A stretch of DNA of 64,000 bases from the human T2T-CHM13v2.0 reference genome, Homo sapiens, in assembly GCF_009914755.1 (NCBI RefSeq), contig NC_060929.1. One strand, 5' to 3'. The notes under the pieces are model-generated. The model did no database searches. It worked only from the letters and a program-made list of their open reading frames with translations, and was not told the DNA's origin. Position numbers and translations under genes: made by a program. Positions 31,831-49,698 of the stretch are shown here, piece by piece; within the stretch, counting starts at the first letter, position 1, and every line of letters starts with the position of its first letter.

Positions 31831-33161
31831 CAGCTCTGCTGTCTGCATACCCTCTCCCACCTTCCTGAATTCTCCCAGCTGAACCAAGTAGGCCTGCATT
31901 TTTTCTTTTTAAGGATAGTCTGAGCTTGTATCAAGGGCTTTGCAGACTATCCTTTGAGTTTTAAGGCAGCTCTGGTACCCCAGACCTTCCTCTCATGTCA
32001 GAAATGTCCTTGACCCTCAGACATGGGCTCTGGAGGCTAATTATCTCAGGTGGTGGCCTGTCACCTTCTAGGCTGGAAATCTACCACCTCTGAAAATGTT
32101 TAATTTTCAGTCTTTTAGACAGGGGACTTTTTCTGACCTGTTCATCAAAGTGTGTTTTCATGACTAAGGAGTCCCCTAACTCTCCTACTGCTATAGGTAT
32201 ATTTTATTACTCAGTTAATTTCGACTGGCCTCGTATCATGGGATACTTGACATTTCAATACCTTAGGCATTAAATTGAAAAACACCTAATTGATCATTTT
32301 CATACAGTAAGTTTAAGTTTCCCTTTCCTACTCAAAAGAATGCAGCGTAGTCTTAGGGACACTTGAATATTTTCTACTGGTCTTTGAGGGGCTCAGTCAC
32401 CTTTGCTCTCTTTGTCTACATGGTTAGAAACCTGTCTGTACATGTTGAGCAGACTGGTATGCTTATCACATGCTAGAGAAGTTTCTGGAGGGTTCTCTGC
32501 CTGTTCTGTATATTTCAAGAAAGCCCCAATGCTGGTTCCCCATCCATGGCCCTCCTCCAGACTCAGTTGTGGAAGGGGGATGGGGAATGAAGCAGGTATG
32601 AAAACAATGGGGCCACACTCTTCTACAGCCAGGATACTCCTTGCAGAGAGAAGGCCCAGCATGGCATCATCAGGAATGGAGCCTAGGCCCTGGCACTCAC
32701 AGGTGTCCTGGAGGAGTTGGAGCCCAGATATGGGACATCCAGTGTAGGCAAGCAAGAAGCTTGGAGACCAAAGTCCCTGTGGGTGATGGAGGGAAACTTA
32801 CCAGAGAGATAGCATCTGGAATGTTTGGAGACTGGCATTAGGTGGCAGCCCAAGGAGGAGTCCAGGGCAGAGAGGCTGAAAATTGGAGGAAGGGGGAAGG
32901 CTCCTGGTCTAGGGCTCAGGGGCAGGGCTCCTGCCCCTGGGAGGTCTGCAGTGAGGACCTGTGGCCCCAAGCATCACCATAAGCAATCAGGCAGACAAAA
33001 TGAGTCAAAGATGTGATCTTTAGAATGGGAGAACAAGCTGGGGCTGAGACAGAATTGCCTACGTTCAAATCCCCATTCTATCACTTATCACCTATGTAAC
33101 TTTGGTCAAGTAACAGACTTTCTGTGCTGCAGTTTCCTCATCTGTAAAATGAGAATAAATT

Positions 33162-34018
33162 CCTGTAATCCCAGCACTTTGGAAGGCTGAGGCAGGCAGA
33201 TCACTTGACTCCAGGAGTTCGAGACCAGCCTGGGCAACATGGCAAAATCCCGTCTCTACAAAAAATACAAAAACTAGCCAGGCATGGTGGCACGTGCCTG
33301 TAATCCCAGCCACTGTGTCCGGAATTGGTGGGTTCTTGGTCTCACTGACTTCAAGAATGAAGCCGCGGACCCTCGCAGTGAGTGTTACAGCTCTTAAGGT
33401 GGCGCGTCTGGAGTTTGGTCCTTCTGATGTTCGAATGTGTTCGGAGTTTCTCCCTTCTGGTGGGTTCGTGGTCTCGCTGGCTCAGGAGTGAAGCTACAGA
33501 CCTTCCCGGTGAGTGTTACAGCTCTTAAGGTGGCGCGTCTGGAGTTGTTCCTTCCTCCTGGTGGGCTCGTGGTCTCACTGGCTTCAGGAGTGAAGCTGCA
33601 GACCTTCGCGGTGAGTGTTACAGCTCATAAAAGCAGCGTGGACCCAAAGAGTGAGCAGTAGCAAGATTTATCGCAAAGAGCGAAAGAACAAAGCCTCCAC
33701 AGTGTGGAAGCCCACGCCCACCCGGAACTCCAGCTGGCCCGCAAGCAACGCGCGCAGCCCCGGTTCCCGCTCGCGCCTCTCCCTCCACACCTCCCTGCAA
33801 GCTGAGGCAGCCGGCTATGGCCTTGGCCAGCCCAGAAAGGGGCTCCCACAGTGCAGCAGTGGGCTGAAGGGCTCCCACTTTGGCGGCGCTACTCGGGAGG
33901 CTGAGGTGGGAGGATTGCTTGAGCCTGAGAGGTCAAGGCTGCAGTGAACCATGATTATGCCATTGCACTCTAGCCTGGGTGACAGAGTGAGACTCTGTCT
34001 CAAAAAAAAAAAAAAAAA
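33162..34018 (+). mobile_element. AluJb (5'-clipped) split by LTR12C (pieces 33162-33313 and 33888-34018)
   Basis: ...TAATCCCAGCCAC | GCTACTCGGGAGGCTGAGGTGGGAGGATTGCTTGAGCC; TSD GAGAATAA at 33151 and 34027. Confidence 0.93.
33314..33875 (-). mobile_element. LTR12C (HERV9) LTR, internally deleted, 5' end rearranged
   Basis: TGTGTCCGGAATTGGTGGGTTCTTGGTCTC terminus; U5 repeats; jumps to U3 at 33710/33711. Confidence 0.95.
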
Positions 34019-34148
34019 GAGAGAGAGAGAATAATAACAAAGCCTACCTCATAGGAATTTTTTTTTTTCTTTGTGACAGAGTCTTGCCTTGTTGCCAGGC
34101 TGGAGTGTAGTGGCGCAATCTCGGCTCACTGCAACTTCCACCTCCTGG

Positions 34149-35417
34149 TGAGAGGGGACAGCGTACTGGCAGTCCTCACAGCCCTCGCTTGCTCTCGGTG
34201 CCTCCTCTGCCTGGGCTCCCACTTTGGTGGCACTTGAGGAGCCCTTCAGCCCACCGCTGCACTGTGGGAGCCCCTTTCTGGGCTGGCCAAGGCCGGAGCC
34301 CACTCCCTCAGCTTGCAGGGAGGTGTGGAGGGAGAGGCGCGAGCGGGAACCGGGGCTGCCTACGGTGCTTGTGGGCCAGCTGGAGTTCCGGGTGGGCGTG
34401 GGCTTGGCGGGCCCTGCACTCGGAGCAGCGGGGCGGCTCTGCCTGCCCCGGGCAGTGAGAGACTTAGCACCCGGGCCAGCGGCTGCGGAGGGTGTACTGG
34501 GTCCCCCAGCAGTGCCAGCCCACCGACGCTGCGCTCGATTTCTCACCGGGCCTTAGCTGCCTTCCTGCTGGGCAGGGCTGGGGACCTGCAGCCTGCCATG
34601 CCTGAGCCTCCCACCCCCTCCATGGGCTCCTGTGCGGCCGGAGCCTCCCCAACGAGTGCCACCCCACGGTGCCCAGTCCCATCGACCACCCAAGGGCTGA
34701 GGAGTGCAAGCCTGGCATGGGACTGGCAGGCAGCTCCACCTGCAGCCCTGGTGCGGGATCCACTGGGTGAAGCCAGCTGGGCTCCTGAGTCTGGTGGGGA
34801 GGTGGAGAACCTTTATGTCTAGCTCAGGGATTGTAAATACACCAATTGGCACTCTGTATCTAGCTCAAGGTTTGTAAACACACCAATCAGCACCCTGTGT
34901 CTAGCTCAGGGTTTGTGAATGCACCAATGGACACTCTGTATGTAGCTGCTCTGATGGGGACGTGGAGAACCTTTATGTCTAGCTCAGGGATTGTAAATGC
35001 ACCAATCAGTGCCCTGTCAAAACAGACCACTGGGCTCTACCAATCAGCAGGAAGTGGGTGGGGCCAGATAAGAGAATAAAAGCAGGCTGCCCGAGCCAGC
35101 AGTGGCAACCTGCTGGGGTTCCCTTCCATAGTGTGGTAGCTTTGTTCTTTCATTCTTTGCAATAAATCTTGCTGCTGCTCACTCTTTGGGTCCACACTGC
35201 TTTTATGAGCTGTAACACTCACCGGGAAGGTCTGCAGCTTCACTCCTGAGCCAGCAAGACCACGAACCCACCATAATGAAGAAACTCCCAACACATTCAA
35301 ACATCAGAAGGACCAAACTCCAGACGCGCCACCTTAAGAGCTGTAACACTCACTGCGAGGGTCCGCGGCTTCATTCTTGAAGTCGGTGAGACCAAGAACC
35401 CACCAATTCCGGACACA
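34149..35417 (+). mobile_element. LTR12C solo LTR, both termini intact (1269 bp)
   Basis: TGAGAGGGGACAGCGTACTGGCAG...CCAATTCCGGACACA; perfect 4-bp TSD CTGG at 34145-34148 and 35418-35421. Confidence 0.97.
34820..35110 (+). promoter_or_regulatory. LTR12C U3 enhancer/promoter
   Basis: About 41-bp repeats carrying CCAAT (NF-Y) motifs; CCAATCAG near 35040; GT box GGGTGGGG; AGATAA; TATA-like GAATAAAA near 35075; LTR AATAAA at 35161. Confidence 0.75.
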
Positions 35418-36309
35418 CTGGGTTCAAGCGATTCTCATGCCTCAGCCTCCCGAGTAGCTGAGATTACAGGCATGAGTCACAACCCCCAGCTGTTTTTTTT
35501 TTTTTTTTTTTTTTTTTTTTGGTAGAGACTGGGTTTCACCATGTTGGCCAGAATGGTCTTGATCTCCTGACCTCGTGATCGGCTTGCCTCAGCCTCCCAA
35601 AGTGCTGGGATTACAGGCGTGAGCCACCACTCCCGGCCAGGATTGTTATGAGAAGCAAATTAAATAATATATGTAAAGCGCTTAGAAAAGAGTAGGTGTT
35701 AAAAAAGTTATTATTAGTCAATATTATTATTAGCACAACTGAGATAATCAAAGCAGAAGAAGCCTTAAGGCGGTCTTGATGTGGAATCACCAAAGTGGTT
35801 TAGTTATTCTTCAGTTCCCTCTAAATAAGGACAAGATTGGTCACAGATCTGGGGTAAGGATAAACTACAGACAGGGCTCAAGTGGTAGAAGAGAGCTGCA
35901 GAGGCAAGGAGCCAGGAAAATTCTTGCAAATGTAGTTGGGAGAATCACATTTTATTTTCTGGCAACTCTGACACATAGTCATTGTGCCCTATGGCCTATC
36001 CAGAATCTTTGGGCTCCCTGGGGCTAGTGCTAGAGATGTGAGTCATGAGAGAGAAGAGTCTGGAAGGCCCTCTGCCACCCTGGGGCCTCTGCCGTAGGCT
36101 GGCTCCTCTAAATCTCCAGGGTGAGCAGTGGCCACGAGAGAGAGCACGCACCTCTGGCCTCATGCCAGCCCTCTTCATGGACCTGCTGATCACAAGTGCA
36201 GCTGGAGTGTGAGGCATCAAAATACATACCCTATTTCACAAGTCATGCCCTCATCAATCCCTCTTGCACACATTAAGACAAAAACATGGCATTAAAAATA
36301 GTTATTTAC

Positions 36310-48606: not shown

Positions 48607-48843
48607 AATAATCACAATAATAACATTGAAACAGCACTTACTACGCCCAGGACAGTTCCCAGCAATTTACATGGGGTATTAACCCAGGTAATCCTCACAA
48701 CAACCCTATGAGGAAGTACTATTCATATGCCCATTGTACAGATGAGGCACAGAAAAACTAATGAACTTGCCTAAGAACACACAGCTACTTAATTGGCATA
48801 ACAGAGACTTGAGCCCAGACACAGCCCGACTCTAGCACCTCTG
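48607..48843 (-). mobile_element. MIR
   Basis: TAATCCTCACAACAACCCTATGAGG...CCCATTGTACAGATGAGG...AACTTGCCTAAG. Confidence 0.88.
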
Positions 48844-49027: not shown

Positions 49028-49146
49028 TTTAGGCTCTCTCTACACGGTTATCTCAGGACCTCAGCACCTCTGCTTTCCTCCCTGTTACTCAGACTATTAC
49101 ATTACACCCTGATCTTACACTCTGCCACTCTCCATTTTTCTTCCCT

Positions 49147-49698
49147 TGCAGTGGTTTTAAAATATGTCCACAAATTCTTGAACACTCATCTCTTCGAAAG
49201 GTAGAGATGACTCCCCTCCCCTTGAGTAGTGACTCTCTTCTAATAAATGTAATTTAGCAGCAGTGAGGGTCTGTGACTTCCAAGACCAGGTCATTAAAGA
49301 CCTTTGCAGCTTCTTCCTTCCTGGTAAGTTGTGGATTGCTCCCTCTGGGGGAAGCCAGCTGCTATGTCATAAGATCACTCAGCCCTATGAAGAGGACCTC
49401 CTGGTGAGGAACTGTGGACTCCTGCCCACAGCCAAGGAAGAATGGAGGTCTTCCAGCAAGTAATCACTGAATGAGCCAAATTGGGAGTAAATCTTCCAGC
49501 CCCAGGCAATCCCTAAAATGACTAGAACCCTGGTGGACATCTTGAATGCTACCTCATGAAAGACCTGAGCTGGAACCATCCTGCTAAGCTGCTCCCAGAT
49601 TCCTGACCGTCAGACACTGTGCAAGATCATAAATGTCCATTACTTTACACTGATAAACTGTGGGTTCATTTGTTATGTAGCAATAGATAACGAATACA
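49147..49698 (+). mobile_element. MLT1F-like LTR
   Basis: GGTTTTAAAATATGTCCACAAATTCTTGA...GCTAAGCTGCTCCCAGATTCCTGACC...GTAGCAATAGATAACGAATACA. Confidence 0.9.
49152..49323 (+). ncRNA. Candidate exon C (exonised MLT1F 5' part)
   Basis: Acceptor CTCTCCATTTTTCTTCCCTTGCAG|T; donor CTG|GTAAGT (weaker alternative AAG|GTAGAG at 49200). Confidence 0.3.

What the first reader, a model, noticed from the sequence alone, without database searches (positions are those of the whole stretch)
33045..35730. Mirror-symmetric nest: MIR > two tail-to-tail Alus > two head-to-head LTR12Cs (about 2.5 kb quasi-palindrome)
Seen: one MIR is cut twice about 30 nt apart, by AluJb(+) and AluSc(-), whose tails are only about 40 nt apart. 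Each Alu carries an LTR12C antisense to the Alu and inserted in its right arm. The two sites are about 34 nt apart in Alu coordinates, each next to a CCCAG/GGGAGG motif. The locus reads AluL>LTR<AluR> spacer <AluR LTR> <AluL. Established: closely spaced inverted Alus are depleted and fragile, and LTR12C is not abundant enough for two copies 273 bp apart to be expected. Inference: either the Alu hairpin attracted HERV9 integration twice, or one LTR was copied into the opposite arm. Any read-through RNA could fold into several hundred bp of duplex (an ADAR/MDA5 substrate), and the DNA could extrude a cruciform.
Basis: partly seen in the sequence, partly recalled or inferred. Interest (0 to 1): 0.8.

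Follow-up and report, generated by a model that had tools for sequence, protein, structure and literature searches.

The report
Two inverted LTR12C copies inside Alus
Two old retroviral LTRs landed separately in two back-to-back Alu repeats and later seem to have swapped about 130 bases, so this is an ordinary nested-repeat locus with a small recombination scar rather than a new kind of element.

Summary
The nest is real. One MIR-like repeat is split by a tail-to-tail Alu pair with a 41-nt spacer. Each Alu carries an antisense LTR12C, and the two LTRs lie head-to-head.

The left LTR (33314-33888) is only a 575-nt remnant. The right one (34149-35417) is complete.

They are separate integrations:
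- Each has its own 4-bp target-site duplication.
- They have different U5 repeat numbers (3 versus 2).
- Over 406 shared bases they differ by 7.6%, no closer than random family pairs.

Whole-LTR copying and "hairpin attraction" are not supported. About 0.35-0.5 such close pairs per genome are expected by chance. The CCCAG-type sites are recurrent LTR12 targets: 45 genome-wide 3' ends sit at one Alu motif.

The last 128 nt of both LTRs differ at only 2 positions. They share a base found nowhere else among 425 genomic copies. That fits a short gene-conversion tract between the inverted copies, which is a known process.

The left LTR also has two private scars: a ~770-nt deletion and a small fold-back inversion.

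A read-through RNA could form about 640 bp of duplex, but no transcript is annotated. A cruciform is unlikely. Interest is low to moderate.

The parts
33045..33159 (+). MIR-like repeat, first piece. It ends at the Alu-left target duplication GAGAATAA (33151-33158).
   Evidence: Read. The joined pieces align colinearly with another copy at window 48821-48616. The name MIR is recalled and was not tested against a library.
33160..33313 (+). Alu-left, 5' part. The Alu is 5'-truncated by about 20 nt. Its last 4 nt, CCAC (33310-33313), are one copy of the left LTR's target duplication.
   Evidence: 82% identity to the inverted Alu-right over 113 nt.
33314..33888 (-). Left LTR12C remnant, 575 nt. The 3' end is intact, there are 3 U5 repeat units, about 770 nt of the interior are deleted, and the 5' end is rearranged.
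   Evidence: 96% over 397 nt to other genomic copies. (alignment to the right LTR and to locus L002).
33314..33441 (-). Left copy of the proposed conversion tract (the 3'-terminal 128 nt of the LTR). Shared rare bases are at 33434, 33418 and 33377.
33708..33710 (-). Junction of the private internal deletion in the left LTR, with a 3-nt overlap of the flanking alignments.
   Evidence: A 22-mer across the junction is unique in the genome (1 match at up to 1 mismatch).
33868..33888 (-). An inverted 19-21-nt snippet at the left LTR's 5' end. It is the loop of a short LTR palindrome (7-nt stems), flipped. The 64 or so terminal nt beyond it are lost.
   Evidence: left LTR 1-19 matches right LTR 83-65 on the opposite strand, 94.7%. 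The junction 22-mer is unique in the genome.
33889..34018 (+). Alu-left, 3' part with its A tail. It starts with CTAC (33889-33892), the second copy of the left LTR's target duplication. A (GA)n run follows, and the Alu's own duplication GAGAATAA is at 34027-34034.
34020..34057 (+). MIR-like repeat, middle piece. This is the spacer between the two Alu tails.
   Evidence: (I14: 41 nt between the A and T runs).
34058..34148 (-). Alu-right, 3' part (T run first on the + strand). It ends with CTGG (34145-34148), one copy of the right LTR's target duplication.
   Evidence: 78% identity to the inverted Alu-left over 77 nt.
34149..35417 (+). Right LTR12C, complete, 1,269 nt (TG...CA ends), with 2 U5 repeat units.
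   Evidence: 91% identity over its whole length to other genomic copies. (perfect 4-bp duplication CTGG).
35290..35417 (+). Right copy of the proposed conversion tract. Shared rare bases are at 35297, 35313 and 35354. The two differences from the left copy are at 35299 and 35385.
35418..35638 (-). Alu-right, 5' part. It starts with the second CTGG (35418-35421). Its middle A-rich linker is expanded to a long T run on the + strand (about 35494-35521).
35639..35730 (+). MIR-like repeat, third piece.

Best explanation
The locus is an ordinary nest built in steps. An old MIR-like repeat received two Alus, tail-to-tail. Later, two separate HERV9/ERV9 proviruses integrated 260 nt apart, one into each Alu. 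Both landed at sequence motifs that this retrovirus's integration machinery favours, and each collapsed to a solo LTR.

Because the two LTRs lie inverted and close together, they later exchanged sequence. A short non-allelic gene conversion made the last ~128 nt (at least 58 nt) of their 3' ends alike. Two substitutions have accumulated there since.

The left LTR also suffered two private repair events. One is a ~770-nt deletion with 3 nt of microhomology. The other is a flip of an 18-nt palindrome loop, joined to the loss of the terminal ~64 nt.

Shown: the anatomy, the separate origins and the private junctions. Inferred: the conversion, its mechanism, and any link between the scars and the inverted architecture. 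My confidence is about 0.9 for the separate integrations and about 0.7 for the conversion tract; the figure given is for the whole statement.
For: Separate integrations:
- The right LTR is flanked by CTGG/CTGG. The left LTR is flanked by CCAC/CTAC, while the homologous stretch of Alu-right holds one CTAC only.
- 48 of 55 family members with both ends have a perfect 4-bp duplication.
- The left LTR has 3 U5 units and the right has 2.
- At 3 of 3 columns that separate 2-unit from 3-unit copies, the right LTR has the 2-unit state and the left has the 3-unit state.
- Outside the tract they differ at 31 of 406 positions. The median for other pairs is 7.0%, and 68.5% of 1,176 other pairs are as close or closer.
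- In the tree of those columns they are not sisters.

Conversion tract:
- There are 2 differences in 126 aligned columns. Only 0.6% of 1,176 other pairs show so low a tract-to-rest ratio. The Poisson P is 0.004.
- They share 3 of the right LTR's 5 non-majority bases in the tract, against 0.16 expected (P 0.0006).
- The 24-mer carrying one of these bases occurs twice in 3.1 Gb, in these two LTRs only. The common form occurs 423 times.
- A second shared base is found in 17 copies genome-wide.
- Only 2 of 1,485 pairs share 2 rare variants in that segment, and this pair is one of them.
- On the tract columns the two are sisters, SH-aLRT 91.

Tract length fits published LTR conversions: maximum tracts of 14-450 bp with a mean of 99 bp, more frequent between nearby copies (PMC4921805, passages read).
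Against: - The AU test does not reject a sister position outside the tract (p 0.446), so the mosaic rests on distances and rare variants rather than on a rejected tree.
- The reciprocal best hit over the terminal 130 nt is narrow. For the left LTR, the right LTR scores 222 bits and the next copy 220. For the right LTR, the left scores 223 and the next 214. Only 40 of about 2,400-2,600 candidates were scored in each search.
- The tract was delimited after seeing the data.
- One of the three shared bases is a CpG transition carried by 5 of 55 comparison rows.
- Two carriers among 425 copies is roughly what a per-site mutation rate would give, so the argument rests on their being neighbours.
- The comparison set was 51-57 rows chosen as best matches, not all ~2,500 copies.
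- The direction and date of the exchange are unresolved.
Confidence: 0.68

Rival explanations
1. Pure coincidence with no exchange. There were two independent insertions, and the shared bases in the last 128 nt are parallel mutations in a generally conserved part of the LTR.
For: - Several unrelated copies are also 97-98% identical to the left LTR in the terminal 130 nt.
- One shared base is a CpG transition found in 5 of 55 rows.
- 2 carriers among 425 copies is near a plausible per-site mutation frequency.
Against: - The two carriers are neighbours 1.9 kb apart.
- 3 of the right LTR's 5 non-majority bases are shared, against 0.16 expected.
- Only 2 of 1,485 pairs share 2 rare variants.
- The tract-to-rest distance ratio is lower than in 99.4% of the other pairs.
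Confidence: 0.14
2. Local copying of a whole LTR. The left LTR was templated from the right one (or the reverse) during break repair between the inverted Alus. Its deletion and fold-back would be by-products, and later divergence would have blurred the kinship.
For: - The patchwork shape of the left LTR (a deletion plus an inverted snippet, both junctions unique in the genome) resembles template-switching repair.
- The AU test does not reject a sister position outside the tract.
- The two are sisters in the tract.
Against: - The left LTR has an intact 3' terminus and a 4-bp duplication of the family's usual length at a different Alu position.
- It has 3 U5 units against 2, and 3 of 3 diagnostic columns disagree.
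- It is 96-97% identical to other genomic copies but 91-93.5% to the right LTR in segments B and C.
- The right LTR was not among the 40 scored best matches of the left one.
Confidence: 0.07
3. Structure-directed integration. A hairpin or cruciform formed by the inverted Alus drew the HERV9 integration machinery to this spot twice.
For: - Two integrations lie 260 nt apart, both in the right arms of inverted Alus, and both antisense.
- Retroviral integration is known to favour distorted or flexible target DNA (PMC4422553, abstract start seen in the listing).
Against: - The expected number of such close pairs by chance is 0.35-0.52 per genome, or 2.7 if all 5,726 first-look candidates count.
- One of 56 other loci (L036) has a second LTR12-like copy about 190 nt away with no Alu hit at either edge of its LTR.
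- 5 of 54 loci (9%) lie in Alus, close to the Alu share of the genome (more than 10%, PMC3215922).
- 0 of those 5 have an inverted Alu within 100 nt.
- The same Alu motifs are hit 45 and 3 times genome-wide, which points to sequence preference.
- The Alu arms are 78-82% alike with a 41-nt spacer, outside the range reported as structure-prone (PMC10164571, PMC3215922).
Confidence: 0.04
4. Shared viral ancestry of U5 only. Both proviruses came from a short-lived virus lineage, or a recombinant, that carried the rare U5 variant. The tract would then be inherited rather than converted.
For: - The tract lies in U5.
- From general knowledge, retroviral strand transfers can recombine LTR parts from co-packaged genomes.
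Against: - No other genomic copy carries the variant 24-mer (against 423). That lineage would have left exactly two copies, and those two 260 nt apart.
- By my reading of the polyadenylation signal, the tract begins in the middle of U5, not at a U3/R/U5 boundary.
Confidence: 0.05

Closest known systems
Non-allelic (ectopic) gene conversion among human LTR elements (PMC4921805, Sci Rep 2016; passages read)
   Same: A short tract (here at least 58 and at most 128 nt) is made alike between two paralogous LTRs. It is recognised by clustered shared variants. The published maximum tracts are 14-450 bp with a mean of 99 bp, and conversion is more frequent between copies close together in cis.
   Different: Here the partners are two solo LTRs of separate origin, 260 nt apart and inverted. 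The event is old and is inferred from one genome, not from population resequencing. Donor and acceptor are not resolved.
Nested transposable-element insertions (younger repeats inside older ones)
   Same: The order MIR, then Alus, then LTRs follows from the interruptions and target duplications read. It agrees with LTR12C being hominoid-age (PMC8767690, passages read).
   Different: The mirror symmetry is unusual to look at. Given two insertions into an inverted Alu pair, I estimate from orientation alone that both being antisense has a 1-in-4 chance.
Unstable closely spaced inverted Alu pairs (Lobachev/Stenger work, as described in PMC3215922 and PMC10164571; passages read)
   Same: This is a tail-to-tail inverted Alu pair with a short spacer.
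   Different: The spacer is 41 nt and the arms are 78-82% alike. The strong depletion of inverted full-length Alu pairs is reported for spacers of 24 bp or less (PMC3215922). Going from a 12-bp to a 20-bp spacer already cuts Alu-repeat-induced recombination about 40-fold, and divergence cuts it exponentially (PMC10164571). This pair is therefore outside the fragile class.
Weakly palindromic target-site preference of retroviral integration with a 4-6 bp duplication (PMC4422553 and PMC2857682; only the listing and abstract starts were seen)
   Same: LTR12C insertions show a 4-bp duplication (48 of 55 perfect). They also show a symmetric preference: T two bases before the duplication (34/53), T and A at its 2nd and 3rd bases (38/53 and 32/53), and A two bases after it (39/53).
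   Different: The preference here is read from fossil insertions of an extinct virus. It creates a marked hot spot inside Alu. I did not find that hot spot described in the searches, where only the top listings were looked at.
Arm-to-arm gene conversion in large palindromes (Y-chromosome palindromes; seen only in the reference list of PMC4921805, otherwise recalled)
   Same: Inverted copies on one chromosome are kept alike or made alike by intrachromosomal conversion.
   Different: Those arms are kilobases to megabases long and more than 99.9% identical through ongoing conversion. Here a single short tract is seen in otherwise 7.6% divergent arms.

Membership tests
HERV9/ERV9 solo LTR (LTR12C-type) | Full-length similarity to the many genomic copies of one LTR family | tested here: met
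   - Right LTR: 91% identity over positions 1-1267 to the best other copies; 3,881 first-look candidates, 40 scored.
- Left LTR: 94-96% over about 397 nt; 5,726 candidates, 40 scored.
- The 3'-terminal 18-mer occurs 2,054 times at up to 1 mismatch, against 7 for the control. This is close to the ~2,500 LTR12C copies stated in PMC8767690.
- The subfamily label itself was not tested, because no repeat library was on hand.
HERV9/ERV9 solo LTR (LTR12C-type) | Intact TG...CA termini | tested here: inconclusive
   The right LTR has both termini (row L031). The left LTR has an intact 3' terminus, but its 5' terminus is lost or rearranged.
HERV9/ERV9 solo LTR (LTR12C-type) | 4-bp target-site duplication flanking the element | tested here: met
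   The right LTR has CTGG/CTGG, 4 of 4. The left LTR has CCAC/CTAC, 3 of 4. Across the family, 48 of 55 duplications are perfect and 5 of 55 match at 3 of 4.
Non-allelic gene-conversion tract | A stretch much more alike than the flanking homologous sequence | tested here: met
   2 of 126 positions differ in the tract against 31 of 406 elsewhere. The ratio is below that of 99.4% of 1,176 control pairs. The Poisson P is 0.004.
Non-allelic gene-conversion tract | Shared derived variants absent or rare in all other paralogues | tested here: met
   The variant 24-mer occurs 2 times, against 423 for the common form. A second shared variant is in 17 copies genome-wide. Only 2 of 1,485 pairs share 2 rare variants.
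Non-allelic gene-conversion tract | Discordant trees for tract and flanks | tested here: inconclusive
   On the tract columns the two are sisters (SH-aLRT 91). On the rest they are not sisters, but a sister position is not rejected (AU p 0.446).
Non-allelic gene-conversion tract | State before and after the event seen in orthologues or populations; donor identified | not testable with these tools
   No other primate genome or human population data was on hand.
Fragile inverted Alu pair | Spacer of about 20-24 bp or less | tested here: not met
   There are 41 nt between the A and T runs (I14). The threshold comes from PMC3215922 and PMC10164571.
Fragile inverted Alu pair | High identity between the arms | tested here: not met
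   The arms are 82% identical over 113 nt and 78% over 77 nt.
Long double-stranded RNA source (ADAR/MDA5-type substrate) | Long intramolecular duplex in a transcript | tested here: inconclusive
   Folding 33045-35730 as one RNA gives 443 LTR-LTR pairs and 194 Alu-Alu pairs, with helices of 186, 119 and 93 bp. The hub's table annotates no transcript across the locus. Expression and RNA-editing data were not on hand.
MIR (mammalian-wide interspersed repeat) | The pieces belong to one old repeat with copies elsewhere | tested here: met
   The three pieces, joined by coordinates, align colinearly across both junctions with window 48821-48616 (60% identity, E 7e-6). The family name is recalled from the core sequence and was not tested.

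The most novel reading that the evidence does not exclude
The three oddities of the left LTR may be scars of one or a few break-repair events provoked by the inverted LTR/Alu architecture itself. The oddities are the tract copied from or to its inverted neighbour, the flipped palindrome loop with terminal loss, and the ~770-nt microhomology deletion. If so, the locus is a natural human fossil of the quasi-palindrome instability known from yeast. Asymmetric deletion would then have made the structure tolerable.
Probability: 0.15. Interest if true: 0.45.

Novelty: new member of a known kind. Interest (0 to 1): 0.25.

Why it matters
- A striking mirror-symmetric repeat nest can arise from ordinary steps: independent insertions at favoured target motifs.
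- Close inverted LTR copies can exchange short tracts. This can mislead age estimates or trees built from LTR divergence.
- The by-product may be the more useful result. LTR12 insertions show a clear symmetric target preference and a strong hot spot at one Alu motif. This helps explain why these promoter-bearing LTRs sit where they do.
- The locus could feed double-stranded RNA only if something transcribes through it. That remains untested.

Tried and rejected
- **Genome-wide count of close head-to-head LTR pairs.** I tried one pattern with a long variable gap. The tool answered "bad gap" and I dropped the approach. Pattern searches list only the first 100 places, so all copies could not be enumerated.
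- **Unbiased sample of 60 LTR12 sites with wide flanks.** This was meant to measure pair frequency and Alu hosting. I did not ask again and used the 56 loci already held, which had been chosen as best matches to the two LTRs.
- **One literature search.** It failed on term length and was re-sent in shorter form.
- **Whole-LTR sister test.** The tree of non-tract columns does not place the two together, but the AU test cannot reject it, so this test alone decides nothing.
- **Reciprocal best hit over the terminal 130 nt.** It is formally met, but by too small a margin to count as strong evidence.
- **Direction of the conversion.** No column in the tract separates the 2-unit from the 3-unit group, so donor and acceptor stay open.
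- **Literature searches.** They turned up no paper on this locus or on an ERV9 hot spot in Alu. Only the top 5-12 listed papers per search were looked at.


Full report
**Anatomy**

Reading 32800-36000, with repeat and BLAST scans, confirms the nest. A MIR-like repeat is split into three pieces: about 33045-33159, 34020-34057 and 35639-35730.

Alu-left lies on the + strand and is 5'-truncated. Its own duplication GAGAATAA is at 33151-33158 and 34027-34034. Alu-right lies on the - strand. The two Alu tails face each other with 41 nt between the A and T runs (I14).

Each Alu is interrupted by an LTR antisense to it:
- The left LTR is at 33314-33888 on the - strand.
- The right LTR is at 34149-35417 on the + strand.
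- They are head-to-head with 260 nt between them.

The inverted arms are 219 nt at 95%, 168 nt at 93% and 152 nt at 91% identity. The Alu arms are 82% alike over 113 nt and 78% over 77 nt.

The three MIR pieces, joined by coordinates, align colinearly across both junctions with another old repeat in the window (48821-48616, 60% identity, E 7e-6).

The names MIR, AluJb, AluSc and LTR12C could not be tested against a repeat library.

**The LTR family**

The window's own genome could be searched.
- The right LTR matches other copies at up to 91% over its whole length (40 of 3,881 candidates scored).
- The left LTR matches others at 94-96% over about 397 nt (40 of 5,726 scored).
- The 3'-terminal 18-mer occurs 2,054 times at up to 1 mismatch, against 7 for the reversed control. 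This is in line with the "some 2,500 copies" of LTR12C given in PMC8767690 (passages).
- That paper also places the LTR12C-type 5' extension in hominoids, roughly 20 million years ago.

**The left LTR is a remnant**

Against the right LTR and its closest full-length relative L002:
- It keeps the 3' ~400 nt (96.5% identical to L002) and positions 90-255.
- It lacks about 770 nt in between. The flanking alignments overlap by 3 nt.
- At its 5' end it carries a 19-21-nt piece in the opposite orientation (left 1-19 matches right 83-65, 94.7%).
- That piece is the loop of a short LTR palindrome with 7-nt stems. The ~64 terminal nt beyond it are gone.
- Both junctions are unique in 3.1 Gb: 1 match each at up to 1 mismatch. 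They are therefore private events and not subfamily features.

**Separate integrations**

- The right LTR is flanked by CTGG on both sides. The left is flanked by CCAC and CTAC, while the homologous stretch of Alu-right has a single CTAC.
- In 55 family members with both ends, 48 have a perfect 4-bp duplication and 5 match at 3 of 4.
- The left LTR has three U5 repeat units and the right has two.
- At the 3 columns that separate 2-unit copies (7 loci) from 3-unit copies, the right LTR has the 2-unit state and the left has the 3-unit state each time.
- Outside the terminal tract the two differ at 31 of 406 positions (7.6%). The median of 1,176 other pairs is 7.0%, and 68.5% of those pairs are as close or closer.
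- In segments B and C the right LTR ranks 15th and 52nd among the left LTR's partners.
- The tree of these columns does not join them. The AU test, however, does not reject joining them (p 0.446).

**A homogenised tract**

In the last 128 nt (right 35290-35417, left 33441-33314) the two differ at 2 of 126 aligned columns. At the rate of the rest, 9.6 differences are expected (P 0.004). Only 0.6% of other pairs show so low a tract-to-rest ratio.

They share 3 of the right LTR's 5 non-majority bases there, against 0.16 expected (P 0.0006).
- The 24-mer around one shared base occurs exactly twice in the genome, in these two LTRs. The common form occurs 423 times.
- A second shared base is carried by 17 copies genome-wide, these two included.
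- The third is a CpG transition seen in 5 of 55 comparison rows.

Only 2 of 1,485 pairs share two rare variants in this segment, and this pair is one of them. No rare variants are shared in the other two segments. On the tract columns the two are sisters with SH-aLRT 91.

Against this reading:
- The reciprocal best hit over the terminal 130 nt has a thin margin: 222 versus 220 bits, and 223 versus 214.
- The tract was defined after seeing the data.
- The comparison set is 51-57 best-matching rows, not the whole family.

I read this as a short non-allelic gene conversion between nearby inverted LTRs, followed by two substitutions. The process and the tract size are known for human LTRs (PMC4921805, passages).

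**Chance and target choice**

- For 2,054-2,500 copies in 3.117 Gb, 0.35-0.52 pairs of insertion sites 260 nt apart or closer are expected. The figure is 2.7 if all first-look candidates count. One such pair in a genome is therefore unremarkable.
- One of 56 other loci (L036) has a second LTR12-like copy about 190 nt away.
- 5 of 54 other loci lie inside Alus, near the Alu share of the genome. None of the 5 has an inverted Alu within 100 nt, and two have one at about 400-500 nt.
- Target sites show a symmetric preference: T two bases before the duplication (34/53), T and A at its 2nd and 3rd bases (38/53 and 32/53), and A two bases after it (39/53). CTGG is the commonest duplication, at 5 of 53.
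- Genome-wide, 45 LTR12 3' ends are joined to CTGGGATTACAGG (up to 2 mismatches, control 0). That is about 66 times a uniform expectation.
- Two other copies sit at exactly the right LTR's Alu position.

It is explained by sequence preference, not by a hairpin.

**Structure-forming potential**

Folded as one RNA, 33045-35730 gives 443 pairs between the LTRs and 194 between the Alus, with helices of 186, 119 and 93 bp. Three points limit this:
- The two LTRs point away from each other, so their own promoters would not transcribe across both arms.
- The left LTR has lost most of its interior.
- The hub's table shows no transcript here.

For DNA, the centre of symmetry is a 78%-identical Alu pair with a 41-nt spacer. 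Strong depletion of inverted Alu pairs is reported at spacers of 24 bp or less (PMC3215922). Recombination falls about 40-fold from a 12-bp to a 20-bp spacer, and exponentially with divergence (PMC10164571). A cruciform is therefore unlikely.

Whether the left LTR's scars were provoked by the inverted architecture cannot be told from one genome. Truncated copies also occur elsewhere: 2 of the 56 other loci lack the 5' end.

Ape and monkey orthologues, a RepeatMasker run, a complete all-copy tree, a genome-wide count of close pairs, RNA-editing and expression data, and long-read variation.

**Verdict**

The locus is an ordinary nest of independent insertions at favoured motifs. It has a probable short conversion tract and two private rearrangements in one LTR.

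Noticed in passing
Loci L002-L060; genome-wide counts: LTR12-type insertions show a clear symmetric target preference: T two bases before the 4-bp duplication, T-A at its centre, and A two bases after. They also show a strong hot spot in Alu. 45 LTR 3' ends genome-wide are joined to CTGGGATTACAGG, about 66 times a uniform expectation. I did not see this described in the papers listed by my searches.
   Followed up: partly
L036 1-1312 and 1501-2820 (G000:C4:192972731-192977050): Two LTR12-like copies lie in the same orientation about 190 nt apart. The second is only about 80% identical to the window's right LTR. This is another close LTR12 pair, seen in 1 of 56 other loci.
   Followed up: no
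Window 35203-35417 and 33314-33630; loci L032-L035, L039, L042, L056: The number of ~70-nt U5 repeat units varies among family members. 7 of the 56 other loci are colinear with the 2-unit right LTR, and most have 3 units like the left LTR.
   Followed up: partly
Window about 35494-35521: The middle A-rich linker of Alu-right is expanded to a run of about 28 T on the + strand.
   Followed up: no
Window 34019-34030: A short (GA)n run sits between Alu-left's A tail and its target duplication.
   Followed up: no
Window 48616-48821: Another MIR-like copy, 60% identical to the split one. By the hub's table it lies in an intron of the predicted lncRNA LOC107986385, about 250 nt before a RefSeq enhancer mark (49072-49151).
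   Followed up: no
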